Part shown: positions 29,061 through 63,090 of the stretch, piece by piece
Layout of the letters: each line of letters begins with the position of its first letter
Numbering within the stretch: position 1 is the first letter of the stretch
From: an uncultured Myxococcales bacterium
GTDB lineage: Bacteria > Myxococcota_A > UBA9042 > DTJE01
Direction of reading: 5' to 3'
Assembly (NCBI GenBank): GCA_903857665.1
Contig: CAIOFV010000159.1
Span: forward strand, 1,894-65,893
DNA: 64,000 nucleotides
Position numbers and translations under genes: made by a program
The notes under the pieces: model-generated
Databases searched by the model: none
Seen by the model: the letters and a program-made list of their open reading frames with translations, nothing else
What the model was told of the DNA's origin: nothing

Positions 29061-29076
29061 TCGGGGAGGCGGCTTC

Positions 29077-30921: not shown

Positions 30922-30963
30922 GACGCTCCGGTTCCGGCGACCCTTCTTGCAGCGAGGCCCCGC

Positions 30964-33960: not shown

Positions 33961-33990
33961 CGCCCCAGCCGATGCCGTTCAGCGCCGGGC

Positions 33991-36216: not shown

Positions 36217-36328
36217 TCCAACCCCCCGGCACGAAAGGCCGCCATGCGCGGCCCGGGGCGATCCTAGGCCAGGTGACAACGAACCGGAAGCCGGGCCTTC
36301 GGGCGGCAAGACGCGGGCATCGACAGGT

Positions 36329-51300: not shown

Positions 51301-52650
51301 GTGATCCCGCAGGGAAGCCCCCCATTCGCCGACGTCGTGCTCTTCGACAAGGCCGCCGATCCTTCGCCACGAAGCCTCCTGGAGGCCGGCAGCCCGGAGG
51401 ACAGCGAAGCCCGCTACTCTGCGCTGGCCGAGACGCTCGAGCGGCGGGTGGCCGACCGCACCGCCGAACTGGAATTCCGGGCGACGCAGTTGCAGACCCT
51501 GGCCGCCGAGCTGACCAAGGCCGAACAACGCGAACGGGCCCGCCTGGCGAAGGAGCTTCACGACCACCTCCAGCAACTGCTCGTGGCGGCCAAGTTGAGG
51601 GTCGGGCTGCTTCCACGGATGACGGTCGATCCCGATCTGCCTACGGCCGCGCGGGAGATCGAAAGGCTGCTGGCGGAATCGATCCAGGCGGTCCGGGCGT
51701 TGACGGCCGACCTCAGCCCGCTGGTGCTCCATGACCGGGGCCTGGTCGCCGCGCTGGAATGGCTGGCCCGCTGGATGCGGGAAAAGCACCGGTTCGAAAT
51801 CGAGCTGGACCTGGACGAAGGCGCCGAGCCGGCCGACGACGCCGTTCGCATCCTGCTGTTTGCATCGGTTCGCGAACTGCTGCTGAACGCGGTGAAGCAT
51901 TCGGGCTTGGACCGGGCGCGGGTGACGCTGCATCGGGACGAACGGAACCAGGTCCGGCTGGTGGTCGAGGACCGCGGGGCGGGATTCGACCTGTCTTCGC
52001 TGCGCTCCGACGAACGGCTCACCGGGGGCTACGGCCTGTTCAGCATCCGCGAGCGACTGGACAACCTGGGCGGACGGATGAGCGTGGACAGCGCCCCCGG
52101 GCGCGGCGCCCGTATCACGCTGGTCGCACCGGTGTCCCTCCGGACGCAGGCGCCCGCCGACGGGAGCGCCACTGACCCGGCAACGACGACGCCACTTGCC
52201 GAACCGCGGAAGGACGCCCGGATCCGCCTGTTGCTGGCGGACGACCACGAGGCCCTCCGGCAGGGACTGGCCAGCCTGCTGGCCCTGGAGCCGGACTTCG
52301 ACGTGGCCGGCCAGGCGTCCGACGGGCGGGAAGCGGTGCAACTGGCGGCCAGCCTGCATCCCGACGTCGTGATCATGGATGTGACCATGCCGGTCATGGA
52401 CGGCGTCGAAGCCACGCGACGCATCACCCGTGATCTTCCGGGCGTACGAGTCATCGGCCTGTCCCTTCACGAGACCCTGGACATGGCCCGGGCCATGAAG
52501 GAGGCCGGAGCCACGGCCTACCTCAGCAAGGGCGGGTCCGCCGACCTCCTGATCGCGGCCATCCGGAACCCGGGCGATGCCGCGCAGACGGAACCGGGAG
52601 GTCGTCTTCCGACGGCCGTCGGCACGATCCAGAAGCCGCTGGCGTCCTGA
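51301..52650 (+). CDS. cytoplasmic hybrid histidine kinase (HisKA_3 + HATPase_c) fused to a receiver domain, no sensor or output domain
   Basis: GTG 51301 lies 4 nt after GGAGGA. H-box ELHDHLQQLL (NarX/DesK type). N-box LLLNAVKHS. DRGAGF. GGYGLFSIRERL. Then REC (IRLLLADDHE...DVVIMDVTMPVMDG...K). No TM helices. Confidence 0.75.
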   Translation: MIPQGSPPFADVVLFDKAADPSPRSLLEAGSPEDSEARYSALAETLERRVADRTAELEFRATQLQTLAAELTKAEQRERARLAKELHDHLQQLLVAAKLRVGLLPRMTVDPDLPTAAREIERLLAESIQAVRALTADLSPLVLHDRGLVAALEWLARWMREKHRFEIELDLDEGAEPADDAVRILLFASVRELLLNAVKHSGLDRARVTLHRDERNQVRLVVEDRGAGFDLSSLRSDERLTGGYGLFSIRERLDNLGGRMSVDSAPGRGARITLVAPVSLRTQAPADGSATDPATTTPLAEPRKDARIRLLLADDHEALRQGLASLLALEPDFDVAGQASDGREAVQLAASLHPDVVIMDVTMPVMDGVEATRRITRDLPGVRVIGLSLHETLDMARAMKEAGATAYLSKGGSADLLIAAIRNPGDAAQTEPGGRLPTAVGTIQKPLAS

Positions 52651-52731
52651 CCCCGCCCGCAATTCTGCCGGCCACAAGTTTCACGCCTGACATATGATCC
52701 GTTTGGAACATCAACGCGGAGGAGCGCAACC

Positions 52732-53073
52732 ATGGCCTCGATCCGAAGGAAGGAACAGGCGACGGCGCTGGCGTCCATCTTGTCGAACCCGTTGAGGCTC
52801 GCGATCGTGGACCGGCTCCGAGGTGGTCCGTCGATCGTGGGCGTTCTGGTCGATGACGTCGGCGAAAGCCAGGCCACGGTGTCCAAGCAGCTCGGCATCT
52901 TGAGGGACGCGGGCCTTCTGCAATGCCGGCCCGAGGGCCGCTGCCGCGAGTACGCGCTTGCCGATCCTCCGCTGGTCGATGCGGTGATGGAGGCCCTGTT
53001 CGCCCTGGCGGCGCAGGCGGCAGCCACGGGAGCGAAGTGCCGGTCGCGGCGCGCGGCCCGGGCCGCGGGGTAG
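52732..53073 (+). CDS. ArsR/SmtB-family winged-helix transcriptional regulator
   Basis: ATG lies after GGAGGAG. LASILSNPLRLAIVDRL...SQATVSKQLGILRDAGLL is the ArsR HTH. Cys pair CRPEGRC near the C-terminus; no ELCVCD metal site. Confidence 0.75.
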   Translation: MASIRRKEQATALASILSNPLRLAIVDRLRGGPSIVGVLVDDVGESQATVSKQLGILRDAGLLQCRPEGRCREYALADPPLVDAVMEALFALAAQAAATGAKCRSRRAARAAG

Positions 53074-53106
53074 CACGAGCCCTTCGAACACGCGAGGACA
53101 CGGACG

Positions 53107-53541
53107 ATGGACCGGGCATCGCGATTCTGCCGCCGGACCTTCCTGGGGGACGCCTGGCGCACCGTCGCATGGGGCGCCGCCGGGGTGGTCACGCTGGGGC
53201 TCGCGGGCATGCTTCGCCACGTGGTCGGACGGACGATCGACATTCCCCTCCCCGCGGACCTGCTGGAACGCGCGGGCCGCCAGGACGGGGTGCAGGTGGA
53301 CGGGATCTTCGTGCGGTGGAGCGGGGATACGCCGACGGCCTTCAGCCTGCGGTGCACGCACCTGGGCTGCCGGACCCGCCCCGACCCGGCGTCGGGCGGG
53401 TTCGCGTGCCCCTGCCATGGCAGTCGGTTCGACCGCGAGGGGGCGGTGATCCGGGGCCCGGCGGAAGCCCCCCTGGCCCGGGTGCCCGTGCGGCTCGAGG
53501 GGGCGCGGTGGATCGCCACGGTGGAGGCGGACCATGGGTGA
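53107..53541 (+). CDS. Tat-exported Rieske [2Fe-2S] protein
   Basis: Twin-arginine motif CRRTFLG plus a hydrophobic stretch. Rieske boxes CTHLGC and CPCHGS. Confidence 0.8.
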   Translation: MDRASRFCRRTFLGDAWRTVAWGAAGVVTLGLAGMLRHVVGRTIDIPLPADLLERAGRQDGVQVDGIFVRWSGDTPTAFSLRCTHLGCRTRPDPASGGFACPCHGSRFDREGAVIRGPAEAPLARVPVRLEGARWIATVEADHG

Positions 53542-54379
53542 ACGGCCTGCGGACGGCCATCGCTTCGGGGCGCTGTCGCTGGGGTTCCTGGCCGTCACGG
53601 TCCTGTCGGGCGTGGCCCTTGTGCCCATGTATCGGCCGGAGGACGCCCTGGCGTCCGTCGAGGCCATCCACGGCGCCATTCCAGGCGCGTGGCTGATCCG
53701 GGCGGTACACGCCTTCGCGGCGCTGGGATTCCTGCTGTCCACGGTCATCCACCTGGCGCAGGTAGTCGTGCGGGGCGACGTCGGGCGGGTGCCGGCCGGC
53801 ATCTGGTGGCGCAGCACGCTGCTGCTGCCGATCGCCGTCGCGGGCATGCTGACCGGCTTCCTGCTGCGCGGGGATGCGGAGGCGATCGCTGCGATGGCGG
53901 TGGGACGGGGCGTGCTGGGGTCGGTACCCTGGATCGGCGAGGGCCTCGCGACGCTGCTGCTGGGTCCGCCGGGGGCCGGGTTGGGCCCGGTGGCGCTTCA
54001 CCATGCGGGCACGCTGACGGTGCTGCCGTGGCTGCTGTCGTTCGAGCACGGTCGCCGCGCGTGGCCGGACCTCCGGTCGTTGGTGACGGCCCTGCTGGCT
54101 TCGATCGCGATCGCCGGCATCGTGCCCGTGGCGCCCGGGCCCGCCGAAGGGGCCGCCGGCCGCCTGCTGGGGCCGTGGTACCTGCTGGGCCTTCAGGGAA
54201 TGCTGCTGGACCTGCCCGTCGTCACCGCGTGGATCGTCCCCGCGGCCGCCGTGCTGGGCGTCGGGATGCTGGCGCACGTCCGGGGGCGGGCGCGGACCGC
54301 TGTGATGGCAGGCCTGGGGGGCGTCGCGGTGGCGTGGGTCGGCTGGACCGTGCGACTGCTGGTCGCGGGGGCGGGATGA
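53534..54379 (+). CDS. cytochrome b/b6-like membrane protein (short, ~7 TM)
   Basis: ATG overlaps the Rieske gene 3' end. His pairs in TM B (AVHAFAAL...VIHLAQ) and TM D (ALHHAG...) as in the cyt b N-terminal domain. Only 281 aa. Confidence 0.65.
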   Translation: MGERPADGHRFGALSLGFLAVTVLSGVALVPMYRPEDALASVEAIHGAIPGAWLIRAVHAFAALGFLLSTVIHLAQVVVRGDVGRVPAGIWWRSTLLLPIAVAGMLTGFLLRGDAEAIAAMAVGRGVLGSVPWIGEGLATLLLGPPGAGLGPVALHHAGTLTVLPWLLSFEHGRRAWPDLRSLVTALLASIAIAGIVPVAPGPAEGAAGRLLGPWYLLGLQGMLLDLPVVTAWIVPAAAVLGVGMLAHVRGRARTAVMAGLGGVAVAWVGWTVRLLVAGAG

Positions 54380-56241
54380 CGCGGTTCCCACGCACGCTGG
54401 CGGTGCTGATCGTCGCGGCCGCCGTGGGCCTCGGGACGGCCTTCGTCAGGGAGGCCCGGCGCGACGACGCCACCGGTCGCGGCCCGGACCGCGCGGGAGG
54501 GCGGACCGAGCGGTGCCTGACCTGCCATGACCGCCCCGACGAAAGCCCCGGCGGGGCCCACGCGGCCGAGGCGATCGGCTGCGAGGCGTGCCACCTGGGA
54601 AACCCCTGGGCCTTCGACAGGGAACGGGCCCACGCCGGGCTCGAACGGGAACCCGGCGCGCTGGACACCGTGGGACGCACCTGCGGCCGCGAGGGGTGCC
54701 ACGCCCGGGAGGCGGGTCGGGTCGCGACCTCGCTGATGGCCACGGGGCGCGGGTTGATCGCGGTGGATCGGTGGGTGCTGGGCGAAACACCCGGACCCGA
54801 CGGAACGGAGGGCTTCGCCGCGCTGCTGGCCACTCCCCGACCTACGCCGGCGCAGGATCACCTGCGGCGCAATTGCGCGGGATGCCACCTGCGGACCCGG
54901 GGGGACAACCGCGACGACGCGGTCCGGGGGATCGGATCGGGATGCGGCTCGTGCCACGCCACGCGCAAGGCCGCGCTGACGATGCGCGCCCACGTGCCGG
55001 TGGATGCGAAGGTGCCCGACGATCGCTGCCTGGGCTGCCACAGCCGCAGCGGCCGGATCAGCCTGTCGTACGCCGGGCTGGCGGAAACAAAGCCGGACCA
55101 GCCTGCGCTCGAGGGGAACGTCCGGTTGTTCGACGGACGACCTGCGACGCGGGCGGCGACAGACGTCCATCACGAAAAGGGCCTGGGTTGCACGGACTGC
55201 CACCTGCACACGGACGTGATGGGCGACGGGAACGCGCATGCCCACCAGGAGCAGCAGGTCGCGATCACCTGCGAGGCCTGCCACGGGCCCGTCCAGGAGC
55301 AGGACGAGCGGCCCTGGGCGACGGTCGATGACCCGATCACCCGGGACCTGCTGCGAATGCGGACGACGGAACGGACGCCCCTGGAACCGGCCCGCCTGGG
55401 ACGCCGGGGAGTCCCTGTGTGGAACGCGCGACCGATGGCCGCGCTGCCGGTCGAGGCGCGCCCCGCAGCCGGCGCGGACGGCCGGTCGGCGCCTTGGACA
55501 CTGCAAGGCAAGACCGACGGCCGGGAACACCCGGTGCGGCAGACCCCGGCCGACCCCGATCATCGCCTGGCCGGACACCGCCGCCTGTCCTGCCAGTCCT
55601 GCCACTCGGCCTGGGCTCCCTCCTGCACGACCTGCCACACCCGCTACGCTCCCGAAGGCCGCCAGTGGGACTTCGGTCGGGGCGCCGTTGCAGGCGGGGA
55701 ATGGGTCGAGGAGTCGGAGCGGTTCGGCTGGGGAGCGTCCGCCCTCGCCGTTCAGGGCGACCGGATCGTGCCGGCGATCCCGGGCATGGTGCTGACGGCC
55801 GACCTGGGCGCGTCCGAAGGCGCGCACGTTTCGCGACGCCTGTACGCGGCAATCGACCCGCACACGACCCGGAAGGAGTCGCGGTCGTGCGCGTCCTGCC
55901 ACGCCTCGTCGATCGCGCTGGGCCTGGGCACGGGGACGCTGGACCTGGGCATCGACGGGCCGCGCTTCGTGCCGGCCGAGCCGCGGTCCGACCAGCCCGC
56001 CGACGCCCGCGACGGGTGGGTGTCGCTGTTCCCGGAGGCGCCGGCCCCGGGCACCCGGACGGACGTCCGTTCCCTGGACGCCCCCGAGCAGCGCCGCACG
56101 CTGCGCGTGGCCCCGTGCCTGCCCTGCCACGCGAAATCGGCGGACGCGATCTACCGGGATTTCGATCGGTCGGTGAAGACGCTTCTGGACGGGGGAAGCC
56201 GGTGCACGTTCGAGGCCCCGCGATGGATCGGAGTTCGGTAG
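54376..56241 (+). CDS. multihaem c-type cytochrome (11 CxxCH + 1 CxxxxCH)
   Basis: ATG 54376 overlaps the cyt b stop (ATGA). N-terminal signal/anchor MTRFPRTLAVLIVAAAVGLGTAF. Haem motifs CLTCH, CEACH, CGREGCH, CAGCH, CGSCH, CLGCH, CTDCH, CEACH, CQSCH, CTTCH, CASCH, CLPCH. Confidence 0.85.
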   Translation: MTRFPRTLAVLIVAAAVGLGTAFVREARRDDATGRGPDRAGGRTERCLTCHDRPDESPGGAHAAEAIGCEACHLGNPWAFDRERAHAGLEREPGALDTVGRTCGREGCHAREAGRVATSLMATGRGLIAVDRWVLGETPGPDGTEGFAALLATPRPTPAQDHLRRNCAGCHLRTRGDNRDDAVRGIGSGCGSCHATRKAALTMRAHVPVDAKVPDDRCLGCHSRSGRISLSYAGLAETKPDQPALEGNVRLFDGRPATRAATDVHHEKGLGCTDCHLHTDVMGDGNAHAHQEQQVAITCEACHGPVQEQDERPWATVDDPITRDLLRMRTTERTPLEPARLGRRGVPVWNARPMAALPVEARPAAGADGRSAPWTLQGKTDGREHPVRQTPADPDHRLAGHRRLSCQSCHSAWAPSCTTCHTRYAPEGRQWDFGRGAVAGGEWVEESERFGWGASALAVQGDRIVPAIPGMVLTADLGASEGAHVSRRLYAAIDPHTTRKESRSCASCHASSIALGLGTGTLDLGIDGPRFVPAEPRSDQPADARDGWVSLFPEAPAPGTRTDVRSLDAPEQRRTLRVAPCLPCHAKSADAIYRDFDRSVKTLLDGGSRCTFEAPRWIGVR

Positions 56242-56249
56242 GGGAATCG

Positions 56250-57437
56250 CTAGCAGCCGCCGCCCTTCTTGGCGGGGGCGGGGGCGTCGTCGCGAACCGG
56301 CGCCACGACCGGGCGAACGGCGGGGGGCGGAGCCTGGACCTTCGCGCCGCTGAAGTATGCGACCAGGGCCGACCGCAGGCGCCAGTCGGCCAGCACCGCA
56401 GGGGATGCGTCCGCCGGCGCCGCGGCCACCGACAGGATGCCGGACTCGAACGCGGGGAAGCCGCCGGCCAGCACCGCGACGTCGCCCTTGAACCGGCGCG
56501 CGCCCTCGGGCGGGACCATGTCGCCCGCGCCGACCAGCACCAGCGTGCGCGACGACGGCAGGGACGCCAGGAACGCGCCGTCGGTGTCGTCCGCGGGCCG
56601 GCACAGCGAGCCCGGGATCCGCTTCACCGCGCACTCGGCCGCCGGGCGCAGGTCCGCGACCTGCACGGCGCCCGGGCGTTCGATCAGCGCCTTCGCCAGC
56701 GTCACCGCGTCCCACGAGGCCACGGTCCGTTCCGGAACCACCGGGACGGGCGCCGCGGGCAGCGCCATCGTCGCCAGGCCCAGCACTGCCGCCACGCCGA
56801 AACCCGCGAACACCTTGTTGCGCGTCGGGGCCGACGCCGCCGGCGGTTCCTCGCCGCGGCTCTTGCCCAGGGTGCGCTCGACCCACTCGGCGAACAGGAA
56901 CGCCCCCACCGCCATCGCGGCGACGCCCGCGGCGATCACCGACTGCGGCACGCCCAGTTGGTCCGGCAGCCGCACGACGCCCATCGCGCCGCTGGTGTAG
57001 AAATCCGCCACCAGCGGGTACGCCAGGCCGAAGACCAGCGAGCCCGCAATCACACCGACAATCGTCATCAGGCCATCCCACTTGCCCGACGCCATGGACA
57101 CCCAGGACGTCCCGGGGCAGTAGCCCGACACGATGAAGCCGACGCCCAGCAGCAGCCCGCCGAAGATCTGCGGCCCCAGGAACGTTTCGGGCACCGTCAG
57201 CTGCGACATGTCCAGCAGGCCCACGCCCGACAGCACCGTCATGCCCAGCAGGGCCGTCACGATGGCCGAAAACATCACCTTCAGCACGCGCATGTCGGAC
57301 CCGTAGAACTGCGCGGCCAGGATCGGGGCCTGCCCGAAGCCCGAGCCCTCCAGCGTGAAGCCGAAGGCGATCCCGATCACCGTGCCCAGCACCAGGCTCG
57401 CCTCGTGACCGAAGTGCACCGAGAGGGGGAACATCAT
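56250..57437 (-). CDS. YeeE/YedE-family (DUF395) half-transporter fused to a C-terminal rhodanese-like sulfurtransferase domain
   Basis: ATG 57437 lies 9 nt after GGAGG and overlaps the upstream stop (ATGATG). GYCPGTS motif of the second YeeE repeat. The C-terminal ~150 aa (VQVADLRPAAECAVKRIPGSLCRPADD...) is rhodanese-like with a candidate active Cys. Confidence 0.7.
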   Translation of the reverse strand: MMFPLSVHFGHEASLVLGTVIGIAFGFTLEGSGFGQAPILAAQFYGSDMRVLKVMFSAIVTALLGMTVLSGVGLLDMSQLTVPETFLGPQIFGGLLLGVGFIVSGYCPGTSWVSMASGKWDGLMTIVGVIAGSLVFGLAYPLVADFYTSGAMGVVRLPDQLGVPQSVIAAGVAAMAVGAFLFAEWVERTLGKSRGEEPPAASAPTRNKVFAGFGVAAVLGLATMALPAAPVPVVPERTVASWDAVTLAKALIERPGAVQVADLRPAAECAVKRIPGSLCRPADDTDGAFLASLPSSRTLVLVGAGDMVPPEGARRFKGDVAVLAGGFPAFESGILSVAAAPADASPAVLADWRLRSALVAYFSGAKVQAPPPAVRPVVAPVRDDAPAPAKKGGGC

Positions 57438-57952
57438 CGCCACTGCCTCCGCACGAGGGGCGCGAACAGGTAGCCGCCGGCGAACACGCACATCATGAAC
57501 ACCCACGAACCCAGCGACAGCGCCGAGCCGCCCGTCAGCGCCTGGCCCGACGTGCAGCCGCGGCCGAACCGCGCCGCCACGCCCATCAGCAATCCGCCGA
57601 CGAACGCCAGGGCCAGCCGCGTCCACGGGGACACCGGCCGCTTGCCCATCGAGATGCCGCGGCGCATGCGCCCGGCCGAGTACGCGCCGAGGGCGCCGCC
57701 CAGCACGACACCCAGCACCTCGAACACCAGCCAGTCGTCCAGCACGTTCTTGCCGGGGCCGACGTACTCGGCGAAGTACGCGTTGGACTCGACGGCCTGC
57801 GGCGCGATCATGTCCGCGGCGCCGATCCCCAGGCGGTTCGCCGCGCCCGACGCGCCCAGACCGTTGCCCACGACCAGGAACGACCCCAGCAGCACCAGGC
57901 CGAGGACGACCCCGGCCACGTAGGGGTTCCAGAGCGGACGGGGAGACTGCAT
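57434..57952 (-). CDS. YeeE/YedE-family (DUF395) half-transporter (first repeat)
   Basis: ATG 57952 lies 7 nt after GGAGGTG. Conserved GRGCTSG motif. 172 aa, ~4 TM. Confidence 0.75.
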   Translation of the reverse strand: MQSPRPLWNPYVAGVVLGLVLLGSFLVVGNGLGASGAANRLGIGAADMIAPQAVESNAYFAEYVGPGKNVLDDWLVFEVLGVVLGGALGAYSAGRMRRGISMGKRPVSPWTRLALAFVGGLLMGVAARFGRGCTSGQALTGGSALSLGSWVFMMCVFAGGYLFAPLVRRQWR

Positions 57953-57962
57953 CACGCACCTC

Positions 57963-58937
57963 CTACGGGAATTCCCGGAAACTGGACGCCTGTCCCGACA
58001 GCATCAGCACGACCCGCAACGACAGCCCGCCGATCAGCACCAGCACCGGGGTCAGCATCGCCAGCGGCAGGCGCCGCCGGATCTCGACGGCCTCCAGGGC
58101 CAGCGGCACGCCCAGGCCCGTCACCACCACCAGCGACCAGAACGGCGCGGCCCACGGTCCCGAGGTCAGGTGCCAGAACGCGTGCTGCGACGTCCGGTCC
58201 CCGGTGGCGAACCCGACCAGCAGCACCCCGATCAGCACCAGCTCCGCGACGATCGCCCCGACGTCCCAGCGCACCACCGCGTGGCGCTCGTGCTCGTCCA
58301 GCCCCAGCAGCAGCAGCAGCGCCGCGCCGGTGGACATCCCCGACGTCAGGAACAGCGGGCCCAGGATCGCCGAGTTCCACTGCGGCCGCGCCGCCATGGC
58401 ACCCAGCAGGATGCCGGTGTAGATGCCCAGCCCGGCGCCCACCACCACGCCCGCCCACAGCAGCGGCCGCCGCAGGGCATCCGCACGCCCCAGCAGGCAC
58501 ATCAAGAGCGAGGTGAGGCGAACCCGACCCGCCGACGCGAGCAGCCGCGCCCTCTCACCCTCGGTCAGCCCGCCCAGGCCCAGCAGGATCGCCACCGGGT
58601 ACACCAGCAGCAGGATCCACGACCCCCACGACATCGGCGAGGTCGCCTCGAAGGCCAGGTAGAACCGGTACACGTGCAGCTTGAACGACAGGTCCAGGAA
58701 CAGCGCGCACATGCCCAGCGACAGCAGCGCGGCCGATAGCCACGGCGCCAGCCGCAGCGCCATCGACCGCGCCTTCGCGCCCGACAGCAGTTCCATCAGC
58801 GCCGGCAGGATCAGCACGCCGGCCGCCAGCCCGCCCAGGAACAGGTACACGGGGATTTCCCAGCCCCAGACCTGCAGCGACGGGTCGATCAGGGCGTTGT
58901 GCCGTCCGTGGACGACCTCCAGCATCGCGTCGTTCAT
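57963..58937 (-). CDS. psrC: NrfD/PsrC-family membrane anchor of a molybdopterin oxidoreductase
   Basis: 324 aa, 8-9 TM. N-terminus LEVVHGRHNALIDPSLQVWGWEIPVYLFLGGLAAG is typical of PsrC/NrfD. G7 tract as RBS. Confidence 0.8.
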   Translation of the reverse strand: MNDAMLEVVHGRHNALIDPSLQVWGWEIPVYLFLGGLAAGVLILPALMELLSGAKARSMALRLAPWLSAALLSLGMCALFLDLSFKLHVYRFYLAFEATSPMSWGSWILLLVYPVAILLGLGGLTEGERARLLASAGRVRLTSLLMCLLGRADALRRPLLWAGVVVGAGLGIYTGILLGAMAARPQWNSAILGPLFLTSGMSTGAALLLLLGLDEHERHAVVRWDVGAIVAELVLIGVLLVGFATGDRTSQHAFWHLTSGPWAAPFWSLVVVTGLGVPLALEAVEIRRRLPLAMLTPVLVLIGGLSLRVVLMLSGQASSFREFP

Positions 58938-58947
58938 CGCCCCCCCA

Positions 58948-59577
58948 TCACGTCAGGAAGAACACGTTCGGCTCGCACCCGGTTTCGGGATGCAGCACCT
59001 TCGACTTCCGCCCGCGCAGCAGCCGCGACACCTCCGACTCGGGGTCGTTCAGGTTGCCGAAGTGCAGGCAGAACGTCGGGCAGACCTCCACGCACGCGGG
59101 CTGCTTGCCGGCCTGGACCCGGTGCAGGCAGAACGTGCACTTGTCCACGTACCCGTCCGGGTGCGGGTAGCGCGAATCGTACGGGCAAGACGCGATGCAG
59201 GCCTTGCAGCCCGTGCACTTGTCGTGCGTGACCAGCACCGCGCCGCCGTCCTCGACGTGGCTGGCGCCGGTGGGGCACGCCGCGACGCACGGAGGCTTGG
59301 CGCAGTGGTTGCAGCGTTCGGACCGGTTTTCCGCCGACAGGTGCGGGAACCAGCCGCGGACCTCCTCGACCAGCCAGTCCCGGGAGTACCCGTCGGGCAC
59401 CGCGTTTTCGCCCTTGCAGGCCAGCACGCAGGCCTTGCAGGCGACGCACAGCCGGGTGTCCACGACCATCGCGTACCGTTTCTCCCTCCCGAGCGCGGAG
59501 GCGTAGGCGACGGGTTTGAGCAGGAAACTCTCGCCGGAGCGGGAGCCGCCTCGGGACGGTTCAATCTGTCCACTCAT
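58948..59577 (-). CDS. psrB: 4Fe-4S ferredoxin-type electron-transfer subunit (PsrB/DmsB-like)
   Basis: Four Cys clusters (CVACKAC, CNHCAKPPCVAAC, CTGCKACIASCP, CTFC). The ATG at 59577 overlaps the psrA stop, but a ~33-aa N-terminal extension before KRYAMVVD makes the exact start uncertain. Confidence 0.8.
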   Translation of the reverse strand: MSGQIEPSRGGSRSGESFLLKPVAYASALGREKRYAMVVDTRLCVACKACVLACKGENAVPDGYSRDWLVEEVRGWFPHLSAENRSERCNHCAKPPCVAACPTGASHVEDGGAVLVTHDKCTGCKACIASCPYDSRYPHPDGYVDKCTFCLHRVQAGKQPACVEVCPTFCLHFGNLNDPESEVSRLLRGRKSKVLHPETGCEPNVFFLT

Positions 59578-61781
59578 GCCCTCTCCACCCGCACGAAGTT
59601 CACGCTCATGCCGGTCCCCCCCATGATCGGGTCGGTCTTGATGCGCGTCACCAGGCGCGAATCGTCGGCACCACGGTTCCGTGCGTACCGCAGCCCCTTC
59701 GCGTCATGCCCGAAGCCGTGGACCATGAACACGCAGTCGGTCCGGATGCGCTGGGTCGCCTTCAGCCGGATCGGCTGGGACCGCACTCCGTCCTGGTTTA
59801 CCGCGACGACCGTCTCGCCATCCTTCAGGCCCAACTCCGCCGCCATCTGCGCGTTCAGCCACAGTTCGTTCTGGTTGAAGACCTCGGACAGGAACCGGTT
59901 GTTGGTGGTCCGCCCGAACGTGTGGGTCGGCGCGCGGCCGAACAGCAGCCGGAAGTGCCCCGTCGGCGGCTCCTCGGGCGGCGTGAACTGCGGGATCGGG
60001 TCGAACCCCGCATCCTTCAGCCTCTGCGAAAACAGTTCGATCTTCCCGGACGGCGTCGCGAACTTCGGCACCAGGCCGTCCTCGATCGTGGTGGGTCGGG
60101 GCTTCCCGATCACCACGCCGGTGGTCCGCAGCACGTCGCAGTCGTACCCCGCCGCGTGCACCCGCTGCATCGCGTATTCCATGCTGTCCTTCCACGGGAA
60201 GTAGTCGGACAGGCCCAGGCGCAGCGCGATTTCGCGGGCGATCCACCATCCGGGCTTGCTGTCGTACATCGGGGGAACCACTTCCTGCCGCACCGCCGCG
60301 AACGGCACCTTCCAGGGCGGGTTGTCGATGTCGTCGCACCGCTCCAGGTACGTCGCCTCGGGCAGCACGACGTCGGCCCAGCCCACGATTTCCGCGGGCA
60401 GCACGTCCACCACCGCGATGAAGTCCAGCGCCTGGATCGCCTCCTTGGTCCGTTCCGGCTGCGGCAGCGCCATCAGCAGGTTCGTGCCGTAGACCAGCCA
60501 CCCCTTGATGTCGTAGGAGGCCGTGCCCGGGATCGACGCCATGCACAGGCCGCTGGCCAGCACCTCGTCCGCCAGCGGGTACCCCTGGTCCTTCGGCCGG
60601 TCCGGCGGCGCCTTCGGGTGGCCCTGGTAGGCGGTGTACGGGTACGCCGGCAGCGCCATCTGCGACGGCACGAAGATCCCGCCGCGGCGCGCGTAGGAAC
60701 CCAGCAGCGCGTTGAGGATCGCGACCGCCCGGCTGCGCTGGGTGTCGTCGCCGTACCAGACCACGTGGCGCCCCGGGTGCACCAGCGACGCGGGCCGCCC
60801 GCCCGCCATCACCCGCGCCGTCTCCACGATCGTTTCCGGCGCGATGGTCGTCTGCGTGTACGCCCACTCGGGCGTCTTGTCCCGGACGTGCTCCTTCAAT
60901 TGGTCGAAACCGATGGCGTACTGGTCGATGTAGTCCTTGTCGTACAGCCCCTCGGCGATGATCACGTGCATCCACGCCAGCAGCAGCGCCAGGTCGGTGC
61001 CCGGCTTGATGGGCAGCCAGTATTTCGCCTTGCCCGCAGCGGTCGAGAAGCGCGGGTCCACCACGATCAGCGTCGCGCCGCGGTCGATGGCGGTGGCGAA
61101 CTCCTGCACCTGGGTGTTGTGCATGTTCTCGCCCAGGTGCGACCCGATCAGCGTGATCACGCGCGAGTTTTCCAGGTCCAGCACCTCCGGCGAACCCAGC
61201 GTCGAGCCGTACGTCAACTGGAAGCCGACCTCCCGGGGCCCGCGGCACTGGGCGTACGAGGGCGCCGCGATGTTCTTGGACCCGTAGGCCTTCAGCAGGT
61301 GCTTGAACCACGAGCCGCCGTACCCGTGCGAATACAGGGCCAGCGACTCGGGGCCGTACCGGTCCTTCAGGTTCAGCAGGCGCTGCGCGGTGAAGTCCAG
61401 CGCCTCCTCCCACGACACCTCCTCGAACACCTGCTCGCCGCGCTTCTCGCGACGCAGCATCGGGCGCTTGAGGCGATCCGGGTCGTACAGCAGGCCGGTG
61501 CCGCCGGTGCCGCGCGGGCACAGCCGGCCGCGGGACAGCGGGTGCGCGGGGTTGCCGGTGATCTTGGTCACGCGGCCGTCCTTCACGTGGGCCAGCACGC
61601 CGCACTTCCAGAAGCACAGTTCGCAGAACGTCGGCACCACGCGGTCGCCGTCGGTGCCCGGGTTCGCGACCGGGTCGTCGTCCAGGCCCCACCACCGCGT
61701 GGTGAGCCCCGACCCGACTGCCGCGGCGCCCGCCGTCGCGGCCCCGATCTTGATGAACTGCCTGCGCGTCACGCCGGACAT
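59574..61781 (-). CDS. psrA: Tat-exported molybdopterin (bis-MGD) oxidoreductase catalytic subunit, polysulfide/thiosulfate/tetrathionate-reductase (PsrA/PhsA)-like
   Basis: ATG 61781 lies 6 nt after AAGGAGG. Tat motif TRRQFIKIGAATAGAAAVGSG. N-terminal FeS motif CELCFWKCG...C. MopB superfamily. The 868-aa track ORF includes upstream non-coding codons. Confidence 0.85.
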   Translation of the reverse strand: MSGVTRRQFIKIGAATAGAAAVGSGLTTRWWGLDDDPVANPGTDGDRVVPTFCELCFWKCGVLAHVKDGRVTKITGNPAHPLSRGRLCPRGTGGTGLLYDPDRLKRPMLRREKRGEQVFEEVSWEEALDFTAQRLLNLKDRYGPESLALYSHGYGGSWFKHLLKAYGSKNIAAPSYAQCRGPREVGFQLTYGSTLGSPEVLDLENSRVITLIGSHLGENMHNTQVQEFATAIDRGATLIVVDPRFSTAAGKAKYWLPIKPGTDLALLLAWMHVIIAEGLYDKDYIDQYAIGFDQLKEHVRDKTPEWAYTQTTIAPETIVETARVMAGGRPASLVHPGRHVVWYGDDTQRSRAVAILNALLGSYARRGGIFVPSQMALPAYPYTAYQGHPKAPPDRPKDQGYPLADEVLASGLCMASIPGTASYDIKGWLVYGTNLLMALPQPERTKEAIQALDFIAVVDVLPAEIVGWADVVLPEATYLERCDDIDNPPWKVPFAAVRQEVVPPMYDSKPGWWIAREIALRLGLSDYFPWKDSMEYAMQRVHAAGYDCDVLRTTGVVIGKPRPTTIEDGLVPKFATPSGKIELFSQRLKDAGFDPIPQFTPPEEPPTGHFRLLFGRAPTHTFGRTTNNRFLSEVFNQNELWLNAQMAAELGLKDGETVVAVNQDGVRSQPIRLKATQRIRTDCVFMVHGFGHDAKGLRYARNRGADDSRLVTRIKTDPIMGGTGMSVNFVRVERA

Positions 61782-61798
61782 GAACGCCTCCTTGCCGG

Positions 61799-62122
61799 TC
61801 AGGCCCCCGTGACGAGGGCACAGGTCGATATGCAGTGCAGCAACTGCGTCGTCTGGGGCACCGCCAGCGAGTAGAACCGGAACCCCTGGGCGCGCCGCAC
61901 CGACACCAGGCCGTTCATCCGCAGGATCCCCAACTGCTGGGACAGCGCCGCCTGGGGCAGGTCCAGTTCCCGACCCAGGTCCCCGACCGACCGCTCGCCG
62001 TGGCAGCACAGGTGGGCGACGATCCTCAGCCTGGCGGGATGGCCCAGCGCCTTCAGCAGCCCGGCCGCCTTCTCCACCTTGCGTTCGTCGATCATCACGT
62101 GCCTGATCTTCGCGATGTCCAT
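61799..62122 (-). CDS. ArsR-family regulator with Cys pairs (BigR/SqrR-like candidate sulfane-sulfur sensor)
   Basis: ATG 62122 is directly preceded by a G9 tract. HTH LLKALGHPARLRIVAHLCCHGERSVGDLGRELDLPQAALSQQLGILRMNGLV. Cys pairs at HLCCHG and C-terminal HCISTC. It is the first gene of the psr/yeeE operon. Confidence 0.7.
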   Translation of the reverse strand: MDIAKIRHVMIDERKVEKAAGLLKALGHPARLRIVAHLCCHGERSVGDLGRELDLPQAALSQQLGILRMNGLVSVRRAQGFRFYSLAVPQTTQLLHCISTCALVTGA

Positions 62123-62165
62123 TGCCCCCCCCCGAACCGGCCGTTCCCGGCCGTCGGGTTGGACC

Positions 62166-62177
62166 ATATCCAGATAT
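62166..62177 (+). promoter_or_regulatory. AT-rich inverted repeat ATATCcaGATAT in the arsR/tauE divergent intergenic region (candidate operator)
   Basis: The only AT-rich palindrome in a GC-rich 130-bp divergent promoter region. HlyU/BigR-type ArsR regulators bind AT-rich palindromes. Confidence 0.3.
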
Positions 62178-62253
62178 CATGCTTTCTGCAAGTCTATTTC
62201 GAGGGCCAAAAATGGCTGGATCCCTCGCGCCCCTTTCCGCCTAGAATCCACCC

Positions 62254-63090
62254 ATGAGCCCGCTGGATTTCACGCTGGTCACGTTCGGCGTCGCGATGGT
62301 CGCCGGCTTCTTCGGGTCGCTGCTGGGCCTGGGCGGCGGGATGATCGTGACGCCGGTCCTGACCCTGGCCCTTGGGGTCGATATCCGCTACGCCATCGGC
62401 GCGTCGCTGGTGTCGGTGATCGCCACGTCCAGCGGCGCGGCGGCCGCGTATGTCCGCGAGCACAAGACCAACATGCGCGTGGCCATGTTCCTGGAGGTCG
62501 GCACGACGCTGGGGGCGATCAGCGGCGCCTGGCTTTCCACCCGCATCGACGCTCAATGGCTGTACCTGATCTTCGGCCTGGCGCTGGCGGGATCGGCCAT
62601 CGCGATGTTCCGCAAACGCCACGCCGCGGGCGGACCGGTCCCCGCGGATCCGACGGCCGACCGCCTGCGCCTGCACGGCGAATTCTACGACGAGTCGCTG
62701 CACCGCACGGTGGCCTACCGCGTGTCCGGCAGCCGGCCCGCGCTGGGACTGATGTACGTGGCGGGCGTGCTGAGCGGCCTGCTGGGCATCGGGTCGGGCG
62801 CGCTGAAGGTCCCCGCGATGGACCTCGCGATGCGTCTGCCGCTGAAGGTGTCGTCCGCGACCAGCAACTTCATGATCGGCGTCACCGCGGCGGCCAGCGC
62901 CTGCGTGTATTTCATGCGCGGCGACATCGTCCCGTTCATCGCGGGCCCGGTGGCCGCCGGTGTGCTGGTGGGCGCCACGATGGGCTCGCGCGTGATGGGG
63001 CGGCTGGACAACCGGCTGCTGCGCACCGTGTTCGTGATCGTGCTGATGATCGTTTCGGCGCAGATGATCCTGAAGGGGGCCCGGGGATGA
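62254..63090 (+). CDS. tauE: TSUP-family sulfite/organosulfonate exporter (TauE/SafE, DUF81)
   Basis: 278 aa, 8 TM with two GxxGxGGG-type repeats (SLLGLGGGMIV; GLLGIGSGAL). Confidence 0.8.
   Translation: MSPLDFTLVTFGVAMVAGFFGSLLGLGGGMIVTPVLTLALGVDIRYAIGASLVSVIATSSGAAAAYVREHKTNMRVAMFLEVGTTLGAISGAWLSTRIDAQWLYLIFGLALAGSAIAMFRKRHAAGGPVPADPTADRLRLHGEFYDESLHRTVAYRVSGSRPALGLMYVAGVLSGLLGIGSGALKVPAMDLAMRLPLKVSSATSNFMIGVTAAASACVYFMRGDIVPFIAGPVAAGVLVGATMGSRVMGRLDNRLLRTVFVIVLMIVSAQMILKGARG

What the first reader, a model, noticed from the sequence alone, without database searches (positions are those of the whole stretch)
51301..56241. Unclassified respiratory module: HK-REC fusion -> ArsR -> Tat-Rieske -> short cytochrome b -> ~12-haem cytochrome c
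Five co-directional genes with short gaps or ATGA overlaps. Rieske plus cytochrome b is the core of bc1/b6f complexes, but here the c-type partner is a ~620-aa dodecahaem protein rather than cytochrome c1 or f. The b subunit is only 281 aa, and no subunit-IV/petD-like gene is present. A sensor-less histidine-kinase/receiver fusion and an ArsR regulator sit immediately upstream. Rieske/cyt b/multihaem-c complexes are known only from a few lineages (anammox planctomycetes, Geobacter Cbc-type). This arrangement with its own HK and ArsR does not match a described complex that I can name.
Basis: partly seen in the sequence, partly recalled or inferred. Interest (0 to 1): 0.8.

Follow-up and report, generated by a model that had tools for sequence, protein, structure and literature searches.

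The report
Rieske/cytochrome b complex with 12-haem subunit
This is a real but non-canonical quinol-oxidising respiratory complex (Rieske protein, compact 7-helix cytochrome b, 12-haem cytochrome c) related to the uncharacterised Geobacter Cbc6/Ext module, and in dozens of uncultured species it sits in or next to an operon for a polysulfide/thiosulfate reductase and sulfur transporters, which points to a role in sulfur-compound respiration.

Summary
All five genes exist as described. They have Shine-Dalgarno sites and ATGA-type overlaps, and the cytochrome c has 11 CXXCH plus one CX4CH motif. The core is a Rieske/cytochrome b complex.

- **Cytochrome b.** The "short" 281-aa protein is complete. 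It has seven helices, four invariant haem histidines and an invariant GPWY Qo motif. That explains why no petD gene is present.
- **12-haem protein.** It is a distant full-length homologue of Geobacter ExtM, and the cytochrome b is nearest ExtP and b6. The module is therefore a relative of Cbc6/Ext, not an unclassifiable system.
- **Fusions.** In many Acidobacteriaceae, Burkholderiaceae and Nannocystaceae MAGs, cytochrome b and the 12-haem protein form one polypeptide. This argues for a single complex.
- **Regulators.** The histidine kinase-receiver gene is missing in the nearest relative found. Only the ArsR gene is conserved among the close relatives examined.
In 28 of 43 species loci with enough flank, PsrA-PsrB-PsrC-YeeE follow the haem gene co-directionally. 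In this window the same genes lie convergently at 56250-62167, next to a TauE gene.

The 12-haem protein's only structural match is octahaem tetrathionate reductase. It also carries an invariant lone cysteine. Function and direction of electron flow remain inferred. I found no description of this arrangement in the searchable literature.

The parts
51301..52650 (+). Hybrid histidine kinase (HisKA_3 + HATPase_c + NarL-type receiver, no sensor or output domain). It is adjacent to the module but not a conserved part of it.
   Evidence: Pfam domains. GGAGGA lies 4 nt before the GTG start. The gene is absent from the syntenic contig of the 79%-identical relative, where an MFS gene and a 175-aa gene lie there instead.
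52732..53073 (+). ArsR/SmtB-family regulator (ArsR1), conserved directly upstream of the Rieske gene in the closest relatives examined.
   Evidence: Pfam HTH_20/HTH_5 and NCBIfam HTH_metalloreg at 62.7 bits, above the cut-off of 55. A 113-aa gene sits in the same place in the contigs.
53107..53541 (+). Tat-exported, N-terminally anchored minimal Rieske [2Fe-2S] protein.
   Evidence: Pfam Rieske. CRRTFL, CTHLGC and CPCHGS are read directly from the sequence. The best solved relatives are small b6f-type and anammox Rieske domains. Its stop overlaps the cytochrome b start.
53534..54379 (+). Compact unsplit 7-helix cytochrome b, equivalent to b6 plus subunit IV. It has two b-haem sites and a GPWY Qo motif, and no cysteine for haem ci.
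   Evidence: H59, H73, H156, H157, H172 and G213-P214-W215 are invariant in 38 homologues. AF2 model: pLDDT 86.7, helices A-G plus cd and ef helices. The whole length superposes on bc1 cytochrome b at TM 0.70-0.73. The best sequence match in the PDB is cytochrome b6, 7e-17.
54376..56241 (+). 12-haem c-type cytochrome (ExtM-like) with an N-terminal membrane helix, a beta-rich domain at about residues 414-533, and an invariant lone Cys610.
56250..57437 (-). YeeE/YedE-family membrane protein (N-half of the Sulf_transp profile) with a C-terminal rhodanese-like domain. Convergent with the haem gene, 8 bp between the stop codons.
   Evidence: Translation. Pfam Sulf_transp 1.3e-15 and a weak Rhodanese hit. 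Orthologues follow PsrC-YeeE in 29 loci.
57434..57955 (-). Small YeeE/YedE-family protein (C-half of the Sulf_transp profile).
   Evidence: Pfam Sulf_transp 3e-21. NCBIfam YedE/FdhT and TsuA hits are both weak. The position is conserved.
57963..58937 (-). NrfD/PsrC-type quinone-interacting membrane subunit.
   Evidence: Pfam NrfD 1.1e-38.
58948..59577 (-). PsrB-type four-cluster ferredoxin subunit.
   Evidence: Pfam Fer4_11. NCBIfam NrfC/DsrO/TtrB-like hits. ATGA overlap with PsrA.
59574..61781 (-). Tat-exported molybdopterin catalytic subunit, PsrA/PhsA type.
   Evidence: 9e-229 and 765 bits over the full length to Thermus thermophilus PsrA 2vpw. In the printed alignment a cysteine matches the cysteine of the SLCTAPRE segment of 2vpw, which from memory is the Mo ligand. 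NCBIfam PhsA 1e-142.
61799..62167 (-). Second ArsR-family regulator (ArsR2), BigR-like, heading the psr-yeeE operon.
   Evidence: NCBIfam HTH_metalloreg 74 bits and BigR 62.5 bits, the latter below its cut-off. An ArsR2 homologue lies between the haem gene and PsrA in L012 and in the same place in the relative.
62245..63090 (+). TauE/SafE-family (sulfite exporter family) membrane protein, divergent from ArsR2.
   Evidence: Pfam TauE 6.4e-54.

Best explanation
Genes 53107-56241 encode one inner-membrane complex of the Rieske/cytochrome b superfamily.

Proposed mechanism:
- Menaquinol is oxidised at a Qo-type site. The site is formed by the cd helices and the GPWY-bearing ef helix of a compact 7-helix cytochrome b, together with the Tat-exported Rieske cluster.
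- One electron goes through the Rieske centre into a membrane-tethered 12-haem cytochrome (ExtM-like) on the periplasmic side.
- The other electron goes into the two b haems, as in a Q cycle, which would make the step electrogenic.

The complex is a compact relative of the Geobacter Cbc6/Ext module. It is controlled locally by an ArsR-type repressor. It works in the same physiological process as the adjacent PsrABC-type polysulfide/thiosulfate reductase, split YeeE/rhodanese-like transporter and TauE, that is, respiration of inorganic sulfur (or another chalcogen) compound.

Shown: gene structure, cofactor-binding motifs, fold, homology, fusions and synteny. Inferred: quinol oxidation, the Q cycle, the direction of electron flow, the identity of the substrate, and the regulatory role of ArsR1.
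For: - Rieske boxes, the Tat motif and translational coupling to cytochrome b.
- In 38 cytochrome b homologues, four haem-ligand histidines are invariant with b6-type spacing (x13 and x14), as is the GPW core of the GPWY motif; Tyr216 varies to Ser or Pro in a few. GPWF and APWY are listed among natural Qo-motif variants in PMC4122944.
- The AF2 model shows 7 TM helices at pLDDT 86.7. It superposes on whole bc1 cytochrome b.
- The haem protein is homologous to ExtM over its full length, and the cytochrome b is nearest ExtP and b6. The Ext/Cbc6 cluster contains a 12-haem ExtM, a Rieske ExtO and a cytochrome b ExtP.
- Natural cytochrome b-12-haem fusions have no extra helix between helix G and the first CXXCH. 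They make up 30 of the top 150 family representatives. The periplasmic end of helix G fits the topology of such a fusion.
- Synteny: 28 of 43 species loci with at least 5 kb on both sides have PsrA-PsrB-PsrC-YeeE directly after the haem gene on the same strand. Typical gaps are 4-130 bp. Three further arrangements keep them adjacent.
- The window and its closest relatives have the same genes convergent.
- PsrA is roughly half identical to Thermus PsrA (my estimate from the printed alignment).
- ArsR2 is BigR-like, and TauE lies next to it.
Against: - No member of this family has been studied experimentally. All 80 genome hits are MAGs.
- PsrABC has its own quinone-reactive subunit, so it does not obviously need a second quinol oxidase.
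- 13 of 43 loci with enough flank, mostly Holophagales and Betaproteobacteria, have the module without Psr nearby.
- In this window the two gene sets are separate convergent operons.
- The Qo motif lacks the acidic residue of PEWY/PDWY. No APWY/GPWF-type complex has been characterised.
- The Qi site was not assessed.
- Haem ligation and the redox potentials are unknown.
Confidence: 0.62

Rival explanations
1. The 12-haem subunit is itself a terminal enzyme, not just a wire. Quinol electrons arriving through the Rieske centre would reduce a high-potential sulfur or selenium oxyanion at a special haem. The most attractive case is tetrathionate to thiosulfate. The neighbouring Phs/Psr enzyme, YeeE and TauE would then handle the thiosulfate and sulfite.
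For: - There are weak profile hits to NrfA nitrite reductases at residues 261-332.
- Across 47 sequences including the fusions, the conserved candidate axial ligands are 7-8 His, 3 Met and one lone Cys610 for 12 haems. From my own knowledge, His/Cys haems are typical of sulfur-converting cytochromes such as TsdA, SoxA and DsrJ.
- The neighbours all fit thiosulfate/sulfite chemistry.
- Rieske/cytochrome b genes next to catalytic octahaem enzymes have been described for Caldithrix.
- The Geobacter relatives lie in a cluster implicated in selenite and tellurite reduction.
Against: - The model was built without haems, and Foldseek found no PDB match.
- No residue-level alignment to 1sp3 was available, so no active site could be mapped.
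- K379, a candidate lysine ligand, is only 62% conserved.
- The cysteine could have another role.
- Twelve haems are many more than an enzyme needs.
Confidence: 0.2
2. The two gene sets form a sulfur-oxidising chain. The Psr-like enzyme would run as a sulfide, polysulfide or thiosulfate dehydrogenase that reduces the quinone pool. The Rieske/cytochrome b/12-haem complex would re-oxidise the quinol and pass the electrons to an oxidase, nitrate-type reductase or other periplasmic acceptor.
For: - A donor-side enzyme and an acceptor-side complex in one operon would make a complete chain.
- Many carriers are Acidobacteriaceae/Terracidiphilus and Burkholderiaceae MAGs, lineages which from my own knowledge are mostly aerobic.
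- Cable-bacteria models use a truncated Rieske/cytochrome b to drain quinol electrons derived from sulfur oxidation.
Against: - PsrA is closest to a reductase-type enzyme.
- No oxidase or acceptor gene is conserved beside the module.
- The direction of a molybdoenzyme cannot be read from its sequence (stated in PMC13047784).
Confidence: 0.2
3. It is the inner-membrane entry point of an extracellular electron-transfer route, as proposed for Geobacter Cbc6/Ext. The sulfur genes would be neighbours by coincidence or by shared regulation only.
For: - Homology to ExtM and ExtP.
- Cbc complexes are predicted quinol:periplasmic-cytochrome oxidoreductases for extracellular electron transfer.
- 13 of 43 loci lack Psr nearby.
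Against: - No porin-cytochrome genes, no ExtI-like porin and no ExtKL/N/S homologues are near the module in the window or in the related loci.
- The Psr-YeeE association recurs across several phyla with gaps as short as 4 bp. That is not expected by chance.
Confidence: 0.08
4. It is an ordinary bc1 or b6f complex with mis-called or missing genes, or an arsenite-oxidase-type Rieske protein paired with ArsR.
For: The Rieske protein also hits AioB (5e-11) and PetC models. An ArsR gene lies upstream.
Against: - Scores are far below every curated cut-off: b6 58.5 against 325, PetC 58.7 against 250, QcrB 27.7 against 500, AioB 29.5 against 95.65.
- There is no c1, f or petD gene.
- The Rieske gene overlaps the cytochrome b gene.
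- The nearby molybdoenzyme is PsrA-type, not Aio or Arr: 765 bits to PsrA against 158 to ArrA.
Confidence: 0.02

Closest known systems
Geobacter sulfurreducens Cbc6 / ExtMNOPQS (GSU2930-2935) within the extHIJKLMNOPQS cluster
   Same: Both combine a small Rieske protein (ExtO, 14 kDa), a b6-like cytochrome b (ExtP) and a 12-haem, roughly 68-kDa cytochrome c (ExtM). ExtM is homologous over its full length (PMC5877670, PMC2825233). A rhodanese-like gene lies in both clusters. The function of both is unknown (PMC13591261).
   Different: - Here cytochrome b is unsplit (281 aa, 7 helices). Geobacter has ExtP (23 kDa) plus a separate 16.8-kDa membrane protein, ExtQ.
- There is no 10-haem ExtN, ExtS, ExtKL selenoprotein, ExtI porin or ExtJ.
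- Gene order is O-P-M rather than M-N-O-P-Q.
- Scores are far below the NCBIfam equivalog cut-offs (202 against 800; 62 against 290).
- The association with PsrABC-YeeE is not part of the Geobacter cluster as described in the papers read.
Cytochrome b6f and the 'green clade' Rieske/cytb complexes (groups A1/A2 of Baymann et al. 2012, PMC3509893)
   Same: Seven transmembrane helices in total. H-x14-H spacing on helix D. The best solved-structure sequence match is cytochrome b6. The Rieske domain is small and b6f-like. The host phyla listed for groups A1/A2 (Acidobacteria, delta-proteobacteria, Gemmatimonadetes) overlap those found here.
   Different: The cytochrome b is unsplit. It has no cysteine for haem ci; there are no cysteines in it at all. 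There is no cytochrome f and there are no small Pet subunits. The Qo motif is GPWY, not PEWY. The c subunit has 12 haems.
Anammox and Caldithrix Rieske/cytochrome b gene clusters associated with multihaem or HAO-like octahaem proteins
   Same: A Rieske/cytochrome b core is combined with multihaem c-type proteins instead of c1. Catalytic use of the haem partner has been proposed (PMC12954380, PMC5317091). The Rieske domain resembles the Kuenenia Rieske proteins 9rk3 and 9rk4.
   Different: The haem proteins are of different families (HAO/epsilon-Hao type against ExtM-like). The context is nitrogen metabolism rather than sulfur genes. No cytochrome b-haem protein fusion is mentioned in the passages read.
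Geobacter CbcL (fusion of a b-type membrane domain and a 9-haem cytochrome c)
   Same: It is the same design idea as the fused versions found in L043, L060 and L070: a dihaem membrane cytochrome b covalently joined to a periplasmic multihaem domain. CbcL's nine c-type haems are noted in PMC13591261.
   Different: From my own knowledge, CbcL's membrane domain is of the HydC/FdnI type, has no Rieske partner and has no Qo site. Here the membrane domain is a bc1/b6f-type cytochrome b.
Thermus thermophilus polysulfide reductase PsrABC (2vpw-2vpz). Applies to the neighbouring operon, not to the five genes of the finding.
   Same: The PsrA of the window aligns over its full length at 9e-229, including the cysteine of the SLCTAPRE segment. 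It has a Tat signal, a four-cluster PsrB and an NrfD-family membrane subunit.
   Different: The PsrC here gives no sequence match to any PDB chain, including the Thermus PsrC. Here the operon also carries split YeeE/rhodanese-like genes and is linked to a Rieske/cytochrome b module.
Shewanella octahaem tetrathionate reductase (OTR, 1sp3)
   Different: OTR has eight haems, not twelve. There is no detectable sequence similarity. OTR is soluble and not attached to a Rieske/cytochrome b core. No active-site equivalence was tested.

Membership tests
Rieske/cytochrome b complex superfamily | Rieske protein with CxH...CxxH cluster boxes plus the two disulfide cysteines, exported by Tat with an N-terminal anchor | tested here: met
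   CTHLGC and CPCHGS boxes and the CRRTFL motif in the translation. Pfam Rieske 8.3e-11. PDB matches to bc-type Rieske domains.
Rieske/cytochrome b complex superfamily | Cytochrome b with two His pairs on helices B and D for haems bL and bH | tested here: met
   H59/H73 (x13) and H157/H172 (x14) are invariant in 38 homologues. Helices B and D are modelled at high confidence. Haem binding itself was not tested.
Rieske/cytochrome b complex superfamily | Qo-site motif (PEWY or a natural variant) on the ef helix of the C-terminal part | tested here: met
   The GPWY motif lies at the ef helix (helix at residues 214-218 in the model); G213, P214 and W215 are invariant and Tyr216 varies in a few sequences. 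The variant class APWY/GPWF/PPWF is described in PMC4122944. The acidic second residue is absent.
Rieske/cytochrome b complex superfamily | Rieske and cytochrome b genes adjacent and co-transcribed | tested here: met
   8-bp overlap. The same order occurs in nearly all 80 loci. Co-transcription itself was not tested.
Canonical cytochrome bc1 | Eight-helix cytochrome b and a monohaem cytochrome c1 | tested here: not met
   Seven helices. There is no c1 gene, and the c subunit has 12 haems. NCBIfam QcrB scores 27.7 against a cut-off of 500.
Cytochrome b6f | Split b6 + subunit IV, a cysteine for haem ci, and cytochrome f | tested here: not met
   It is a single 281-aa polypeptide with no cysteine (sequence). 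There is no petA or petD. The b6 model scores 58.5 against a cut-off of 325. Only the x14 His spacing and the helix count agree.
Geobacter Cbc6/Ext (NCBIfam ExtM, ExtP equivalogs) | Scores above the curated equivalog cut-offs for ExtM and ExtP | tested here: not met
   ExtM 202 bits against 800. ExtP 62 bits against 290. The proteins are homologous but not equivalent.
Geobacter Cbc6/Ext (NCBIfam ExtM, ExtP equivalogs) | Accompanying ExtN (10-haem), ExtQ, ExtS and the ExtHIJKL genes | tested here: not met
   No further cytochrome or porin gene is adjacent. The ExtN and ExtO models hit only a segment of the 12-haem protein. The C-terminal half of cytochrome b matches no family model.
Geobacter Cbc6/Ext (NCBIfam ExtM, ExtP equivalogs) | 12-haem cytochrome of about 600 aa combined with a small Rieske protein and a b6-like cytochrome b | tested here: met
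   The family description is in PMC5877670.
PsrABC/PhsABC polysulfide/thiosulfate reductase (neighbouring operon) | Tat-exported bis-MGD subunit with a Cys Mo ligand, a four-cluster FeS subunit and an NrfD-type membrane subunit | tested here: met
   Substrate specificity cannot be read from sequence (PMC13047784).
Octahaem tetrathionate reductase family | Eight haems with a lysine-ligated active-site haem | not testable with these tools
Arsenite oxidase small subunit (AioB) | Rieske protein paired with an AioA molybdoenzyme | tested here: not met
   AioB model 29.5 bits against a cut-off of 95.65. The partner gene is cytochrome b. The nearby molybdoenzyme is PsrA-type.

The most novel reading that the evidence does not exclude
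A widespread, uncultured-lineage family of 'hard-wired' chalcogen reductases. In this reading a Q-cycle Rieske/cytochrome b core is bound, and in many species covalently fused, to an ExtM-type 12-haem protein. Its OTR-like domain and invariant cysteine would form a catalytic haem that reduces tetrathionate or a related S/Se oxyanion.

The co-operonic Phs/Psr enzyme, YeeE and TauE would process the thiosulfate and sulfite produced. The proton-motive force gained at the high-potential step would pay for the endergonic thiosulfate or polysulfide reduction.

This would also assign a function to the long-unexplained Geobacter Cbc6/Ext core.
Probability: 0.15. Interest if true: 0.85.

Novelty: new variant of a known kind. 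Interest (0 to 1): 0.6.

Why it matters
Rieske/cytochrome b complexes are the main energy-conserving quinol oxidases of respiration and photosynthesis. Versions that use multihaem partners have been known from genomes for about 15 years (Geobacter Cbc6/Ext, anammox), but their function is still unassigned.

This locus belongs to a large, compact family that is entirely uncultured among the hits found. The family offers three new handles on the problem:
- Natural cytochrome b-12-haem fusions argue that the two proteins form one complex.
- A recurrent operon link to a polysulfide/thiosulfate reductase and sulfur transporters gives a testable physiological context.
- A conserved cysteine and an OTR-like fold suggest that the haem subunit could be catalytic.

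The family is common in MAGs from lake water, groundwater, peat and wastewater. It could therefore be an overlooked component of cryptic sulfur cycling.

Tried and rejected
- **Frameshift fusion of the haem gene:** rejected. Full-length orthologues keep all motifs.
- **c1, f or petD gene nearby:** none found.
- **C-terminal half of cytochrome b against Pfam and NCBIfam at E<=10:** no hit. Its identity rests on the model and the motif.
- **Sequence and Foldseek searches of the haem protein against the PDB:** nothing significant.
- **afdb50 fold library:** unavailable.
- **PsrC against the PDB:** no hit.
- **Promoter, terminator, palindrome and sigma-54 scans of the intergenic regions:** nothing. 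A sigma-54 match count below the shuffle mean shows no signal.
- **DoxX downstream of the module, as a possible thiosulfate:quinone link:** present in only two Holophagales loci, so dropped.
- **Literature searches for this exact cluster:** no paper found. The library covers only open-access papers, and ten Brink et al. 2013 (BBA) on multiple Rieske/cytb complexes could not be read.
- **Geobacter Ext protein sequences:** The comparison therefore rests on NCBIfam profiles.
- **Formal phylogeny:** not built, for lack of reference sequences.

Full report

Yes. The window has about 70% G+C. It carries five co-directional ORFs at the coordinates given.

- 51301-52650: a 449-aa protein with HisKA_3, HATPase_c and a receiver domain. 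It has no sensor or output domain.
- 52732-53073: a 113-aa ArsR/SmtB regulator.
- 53107-53541: a 144-aa Rieske protein.
- 53534-54379: a 281-aa cytochrome b.
- 54376-56241: a 621-aa c-type cytochrome.

These assignments come from Pfam and NCBIfam. The cytochrome c has 11 CXXCH motifs and one CX4CH motif. The junctions are an 81-bp gap, a 33-bp gap, an 8-bp overlap and an ATGA overlap. GGAGG-like ribosome-binding sites precede four of the five starts; before the cytochrome c start the sequence is only G-rich.

The Rieske protein carries a CRRTFL twin-arginine motif. It also has the CTHLGC and CPCHGS boxes, including the disulfide cysteines typical of bc-type Rieske proteins.

No cytochrome c1, cytochrome f or petD gene lies beside the cluster. 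A CoA-transferase gene lies upstream on the other strand, and YeeE genes lie downstream on the other strand.

**2. The 'short' cytochrome b is a complete, compact cytochrome b**

A database search found more than 150 homologues of 270-300 aa that cover the full length. In an alignment of 38 of them, the following are invariant:

- H59 and H73 (x13 spacing).
- H156, H157 and H172 (x14 spacing, as in b6).
- The GPW core of the motif G213-P214-W215-Y216, followed by L217, G219 and Q221. Tyr216 itself varies to Ser or Pro in a few sequences.

The AlphaFold model has pLDDT 86.7 and pTM 0.85. It shows seven transmembrane helices (A-G), two cd helices, and a short ef helix at the GPWY motif. Foldseek superposes its whole length on bc1 cytochrome b chains at TM 0.70-0.73 over about 280-310 columns.

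By sequence, the nearest solved proteins are cytochromes b6, at 7e-17 over residues 11-169. The C-terminal 108 residues match no Pfam or NCBIfam model.

The protein has no cysteine, so haem ci of the b6f type is excluded. Kao and Hunte list APWY, PPWF and GPWF among the natural Qo-motif variants. They note that none of the proline-second variants has been characterised (PMC4122944). Baymann et al. describe seven-helix cytochromes b as a trait of the 'green clade' and of additional groups A1/A2. Those groups include Acidobacteria, delta-proteobacteria and Gemmatimonadetes (PMC3509893).

**3. The 12-haem protein and its link to Geobacter**

NCBIfam aligns residues 41-594 of the haem protein with positions 16-585 of the 599-position ExtM model (E 1e-59). 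The score of 202 bits is far below the equivalog cut-off of 800. The cytochrome b hits ExtP best (62 bits, cut-off 290), followed by b6.

ExtM (12 haems, 68 kDa), ExtO (Rieske, 14 kDa), ExtP (cytochrome b, 23 kDa) and ExtQ (16.8-kDa membrane protein) belong to the Geobacter extHIJKLMNOPQS cluster. That cluster is also called Cbc6/CbcMNOPQR. It was recognised in 2010 as an unusual bc-type complex. According to a 2026 review its physiological role is still unknown (PMC2825233, PMC5877670, PMC13591261).

The module in the window is thus a stripped-down, rearranged relative. It has one unsplit cytochrome b and one cytochrome c, with gene order Rieske, b, c.

All twelve haem motifs, including the CX4CH motif, are invariant in 36 close homologues and in 47 more diverse ones. 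The family has 368 clusters at 50% identity with E<=1e-30. The gene is therefore not a frameshift artefact.

**4. Natural fusions**

In many Acidobacteriaceae/Terracidiphilus, Burkholderiaceae/Rubrivivax and Nannocystaceae MAGs, one reading frame of about 880-980 codons encodes both proteins. The seven-helix cytochrome b, GPWY motif included, runs directly into the 12-haem domain. No extra hydrophobic helix lies between helix G and the first CXXCH.

Independent gene calls agree. Thirty of the 150 best family representatives are 850-960 aa long, with the haem-domain match starting near residue 300-340. One of these, P0252, aligns at 34% identity with residues 8-224 of the window's cytochrome b.

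A seven-helix cytochrome b ends on the periplasmic side, so the fusion is topologically sound. In the split form found in the window, the haem protein has its own N-terminal helix at residues 5-33. I take these fusions as strong evidence that the b and c proteins form one complex.

**5. What surrounds it**

A scan of one genome per species returned 80 loci, all from MAGs. I searched them with the window's proteins and counted arrangements.

- Among 43 loci with at least 5 kb on both sides, 28 have PsrA-PsrB-PsrC-YeeE directly after the haem gene on the same strand. Gaps are mostly 4-130 bp.
- One locus has these genes upstream, and one has them convergent.
- Thirteen have none nearby. These are mainly Holophagales and Betaproteobacteria.

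In the window the same genes lie convergently, 8 bp from the haem gene's stop:

- Split YeeE genes at 56250-57437 (with a rhodanese-like domain) and 57434-57955.
- PsrC at 57963-58937.
- PsrB at 58948-59577.
- PsrA at 59574-61781.
- A BigR-like ArsR (ArsR2) at 61799-62167.
- A divergent TauE-family gene at 62245-63090.

These assignments rest. PsrA aligns over its full length with Thermus thermophilus PsrA at 9e-229. The alignment includes the cysteine of the SLCTAPRE segment of 2vpw, which from memory is the molybdenum ligand.

Two Myxococcales relatives show the same convergent layout. In Acidobacteriota the operon is typically preceded by a sigma-54 activator gene. It is often extended by a large YeeE-rhodanese gene and a FadL/Toluene_X-like outer-membrane protein gene.

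**6. The regulators**

The nearest relative for which context was recovered has 79% identity in the haem protein. It keeps the flanking MopE-repeat and CoA-transferase genes and the ArsR gene. In place of the kinase it has an MFS transporter gene and a 175-aa gene.

The kinase-receiver gene is therefore a lineage-specific neighbour. ArsR1 is the local regulator conserved in the relatives examined. No promoter, terminator, palindrome or sigma-54 site was detected in the intergenic regions.

**7. How it most likely works**

Shown by the data:
- The cofactor-binding motifs.
- The predicted fold.
- The homology to ExtM, ExtP and b6.
- The b-c fusions.
- The synteny with Psr and YeeE.

Inferred from established knowledge of Rieske/cytochrome b complexes:
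- Menaquinol is oxidised at the Qo-type pocket.
- One electron passes to the mobile Rieske cluster and on into the 12-haem chain on the periplasmic side.
- The other electron passes to haems bL and bH and to a quinone at the opposite face. This would make the step electrogenic.

The partner process is most likely respiration of inorganic sulfur compounds, because the complex is so often co-operonic with PsrABC, YeeE and rhodanese. The exact substrate cannot be named, and neither can the direction of flow. PsrABC has its own quinone-reactive subunit. The combination therefore implies one of two things:
- Two acceptor branches of one pathway.
- A donor enzyme plus an acceptor-side complex.

**8. 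A lead on the haem subunit**

Across 47 sequences, the conserved residues that could serve as distal haem ligands are:
- Seven invariant histidines, plus one at 89% conservation.
- Three invariant methionines.
- One lone cysteine, C610, about 25 residues after the last haem motif. It is aligned in 44 of 47 sequences, and the unaligned C-terminal tails of the other three (L012, L017, L037) also contain a cysteine.

That makes twelve candidates for twelve haems. From my own knowledge, His/Cys ligation is a hallmark of sulfur-converting cytochromes (TsdA, SoxA, DsrJ). Campylobacter reduces tetrathionate with electrons that pass through its Rieske/cytochrome b complex.

This suggests, but does not show, a tetrathionate-type reductase hard-wired to a Q-cycle core. 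The neighbouring enzymes would then handle the thiosulfate and sulfite produced. I give this refinement about 0.15-0.2.

**9. Comparison and novelty**

The module works like a Rieske/cytochrome b complex and passes the superfamily's sequence-level tests. It fails the defining tests for bc1, for b6f and for NCBI's ExtM/ExtP equivalogs (see the membership table). It is best filed as a new variant of the Cbc6/Ext kind.

No paper in the searchable library describes the combination of an unsplit GPWY cytochrome b and an ExtM-like dodecahaem, the b-c fusions, or the link to PsrABC-YeeE. Subscription-only work, notably ten Brink et al. 2013, could not be checked.

All carriers found are MAGs. The exact proteins of the window occur in assemblies of oxygen-stratified freshwater lakes, and none carries a functional name.

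**10. Verdict**

The regulators are not a defining part of it.

The added value lies in the seven-helix explanation, the fusions, the breadth of the family and the sulfur-operon link. Interest 0.6.

Noticed in passing
L043:9953-12748, L060:9896-12835, L070:9872-12502; proteins P0251-P0332: In Acidobacteriaceae, Burkholderiaceae and Nannocystaceae MAGs the 7-helix cytochrome b and the 12-haem cytochrome c are one polypeptide of about 880-980 aa. In L070 the third haem motif is CXXCH instead of CX4CH.
   Followed up: yes
window 56203-56205 (Cys610 of the haem protein, 54376-56241): A lone cysteine about 25 residues after the last CXXCH is conserved across the sequences examined, including the distant fused ones (aligned in 44 of 47; the other three have a cysteine in their unaligned C-terminal tails). 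Three invariant methionines (M121, M282, M471) also suggest mixed His/Met and possibly His/Cys haem ligation.
   Followed up: partly
window 62245-63090 (+) and 61799-62167 (-): A TauE/SafE (sulfite-exporter family) gene is transcribed divergently from a BigR-like ArsR regulator, which carries cysteines in 'HLCCHGE' and a C-terminal 'LHCISTC'. This extends the sulfur theme beyond the psr operon.
   Followed up: partly
window 56250-57437 (-); L043:17051-18415: The rhodanese-like domain fused to the large YeeE protein has Val at the position where, in my by-eye alignment, the Terracidiphilus orthologue has the loop cysteine (LVGAGDM against LCSNDST). The window's domain may therefore be catalytically inactive.
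   Followed up: partly
L019:19028-20317 and 17 other loci; also L002:18314-19564: In Acidobacteriota operons a FadL/Toluene_X-like outer-membrane channel gene follows the YeeE genes. This could mean uptake of a hydrophobic substrate such as elemental sulfur. No equivalent lies beside the module in the window.
   Followed up: no
L002:8224-9621, L085:7391-8782 and about 48 loci: A sigma-54-dependent activator gene usually lies directly upstream of the Rieske gene outside the Myxococcales. In L003 the gene caller even merged the two into one 601-aa product.
   Followed up: partly
window 46060-49149 (+): A 1029-aa cysteine-rich secreted protein with MopE-type 'CNGxDDDCDGxxDE' metal-binding repeats. 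A 1032-aa MopE-domain protein occupies the same position beside the CoA-transferase gene in the 79% relative.
   Followed up: no
window 51301-52650 against the contig: The kinase-receiver gene occupies the position where the closest relative has an MFS transporter gene and a 175-aa gene. This points to a recent local gene replacement between the CoA-transferase gene and ArsR1.
   Followed up: partly
window 28993-36384: A glycan-utilisation stretch unrelated to the finding: a sodium:solute symporter, a GH38 alpha-mannosidase and a GH31 glycosidase.
   Followed up: no
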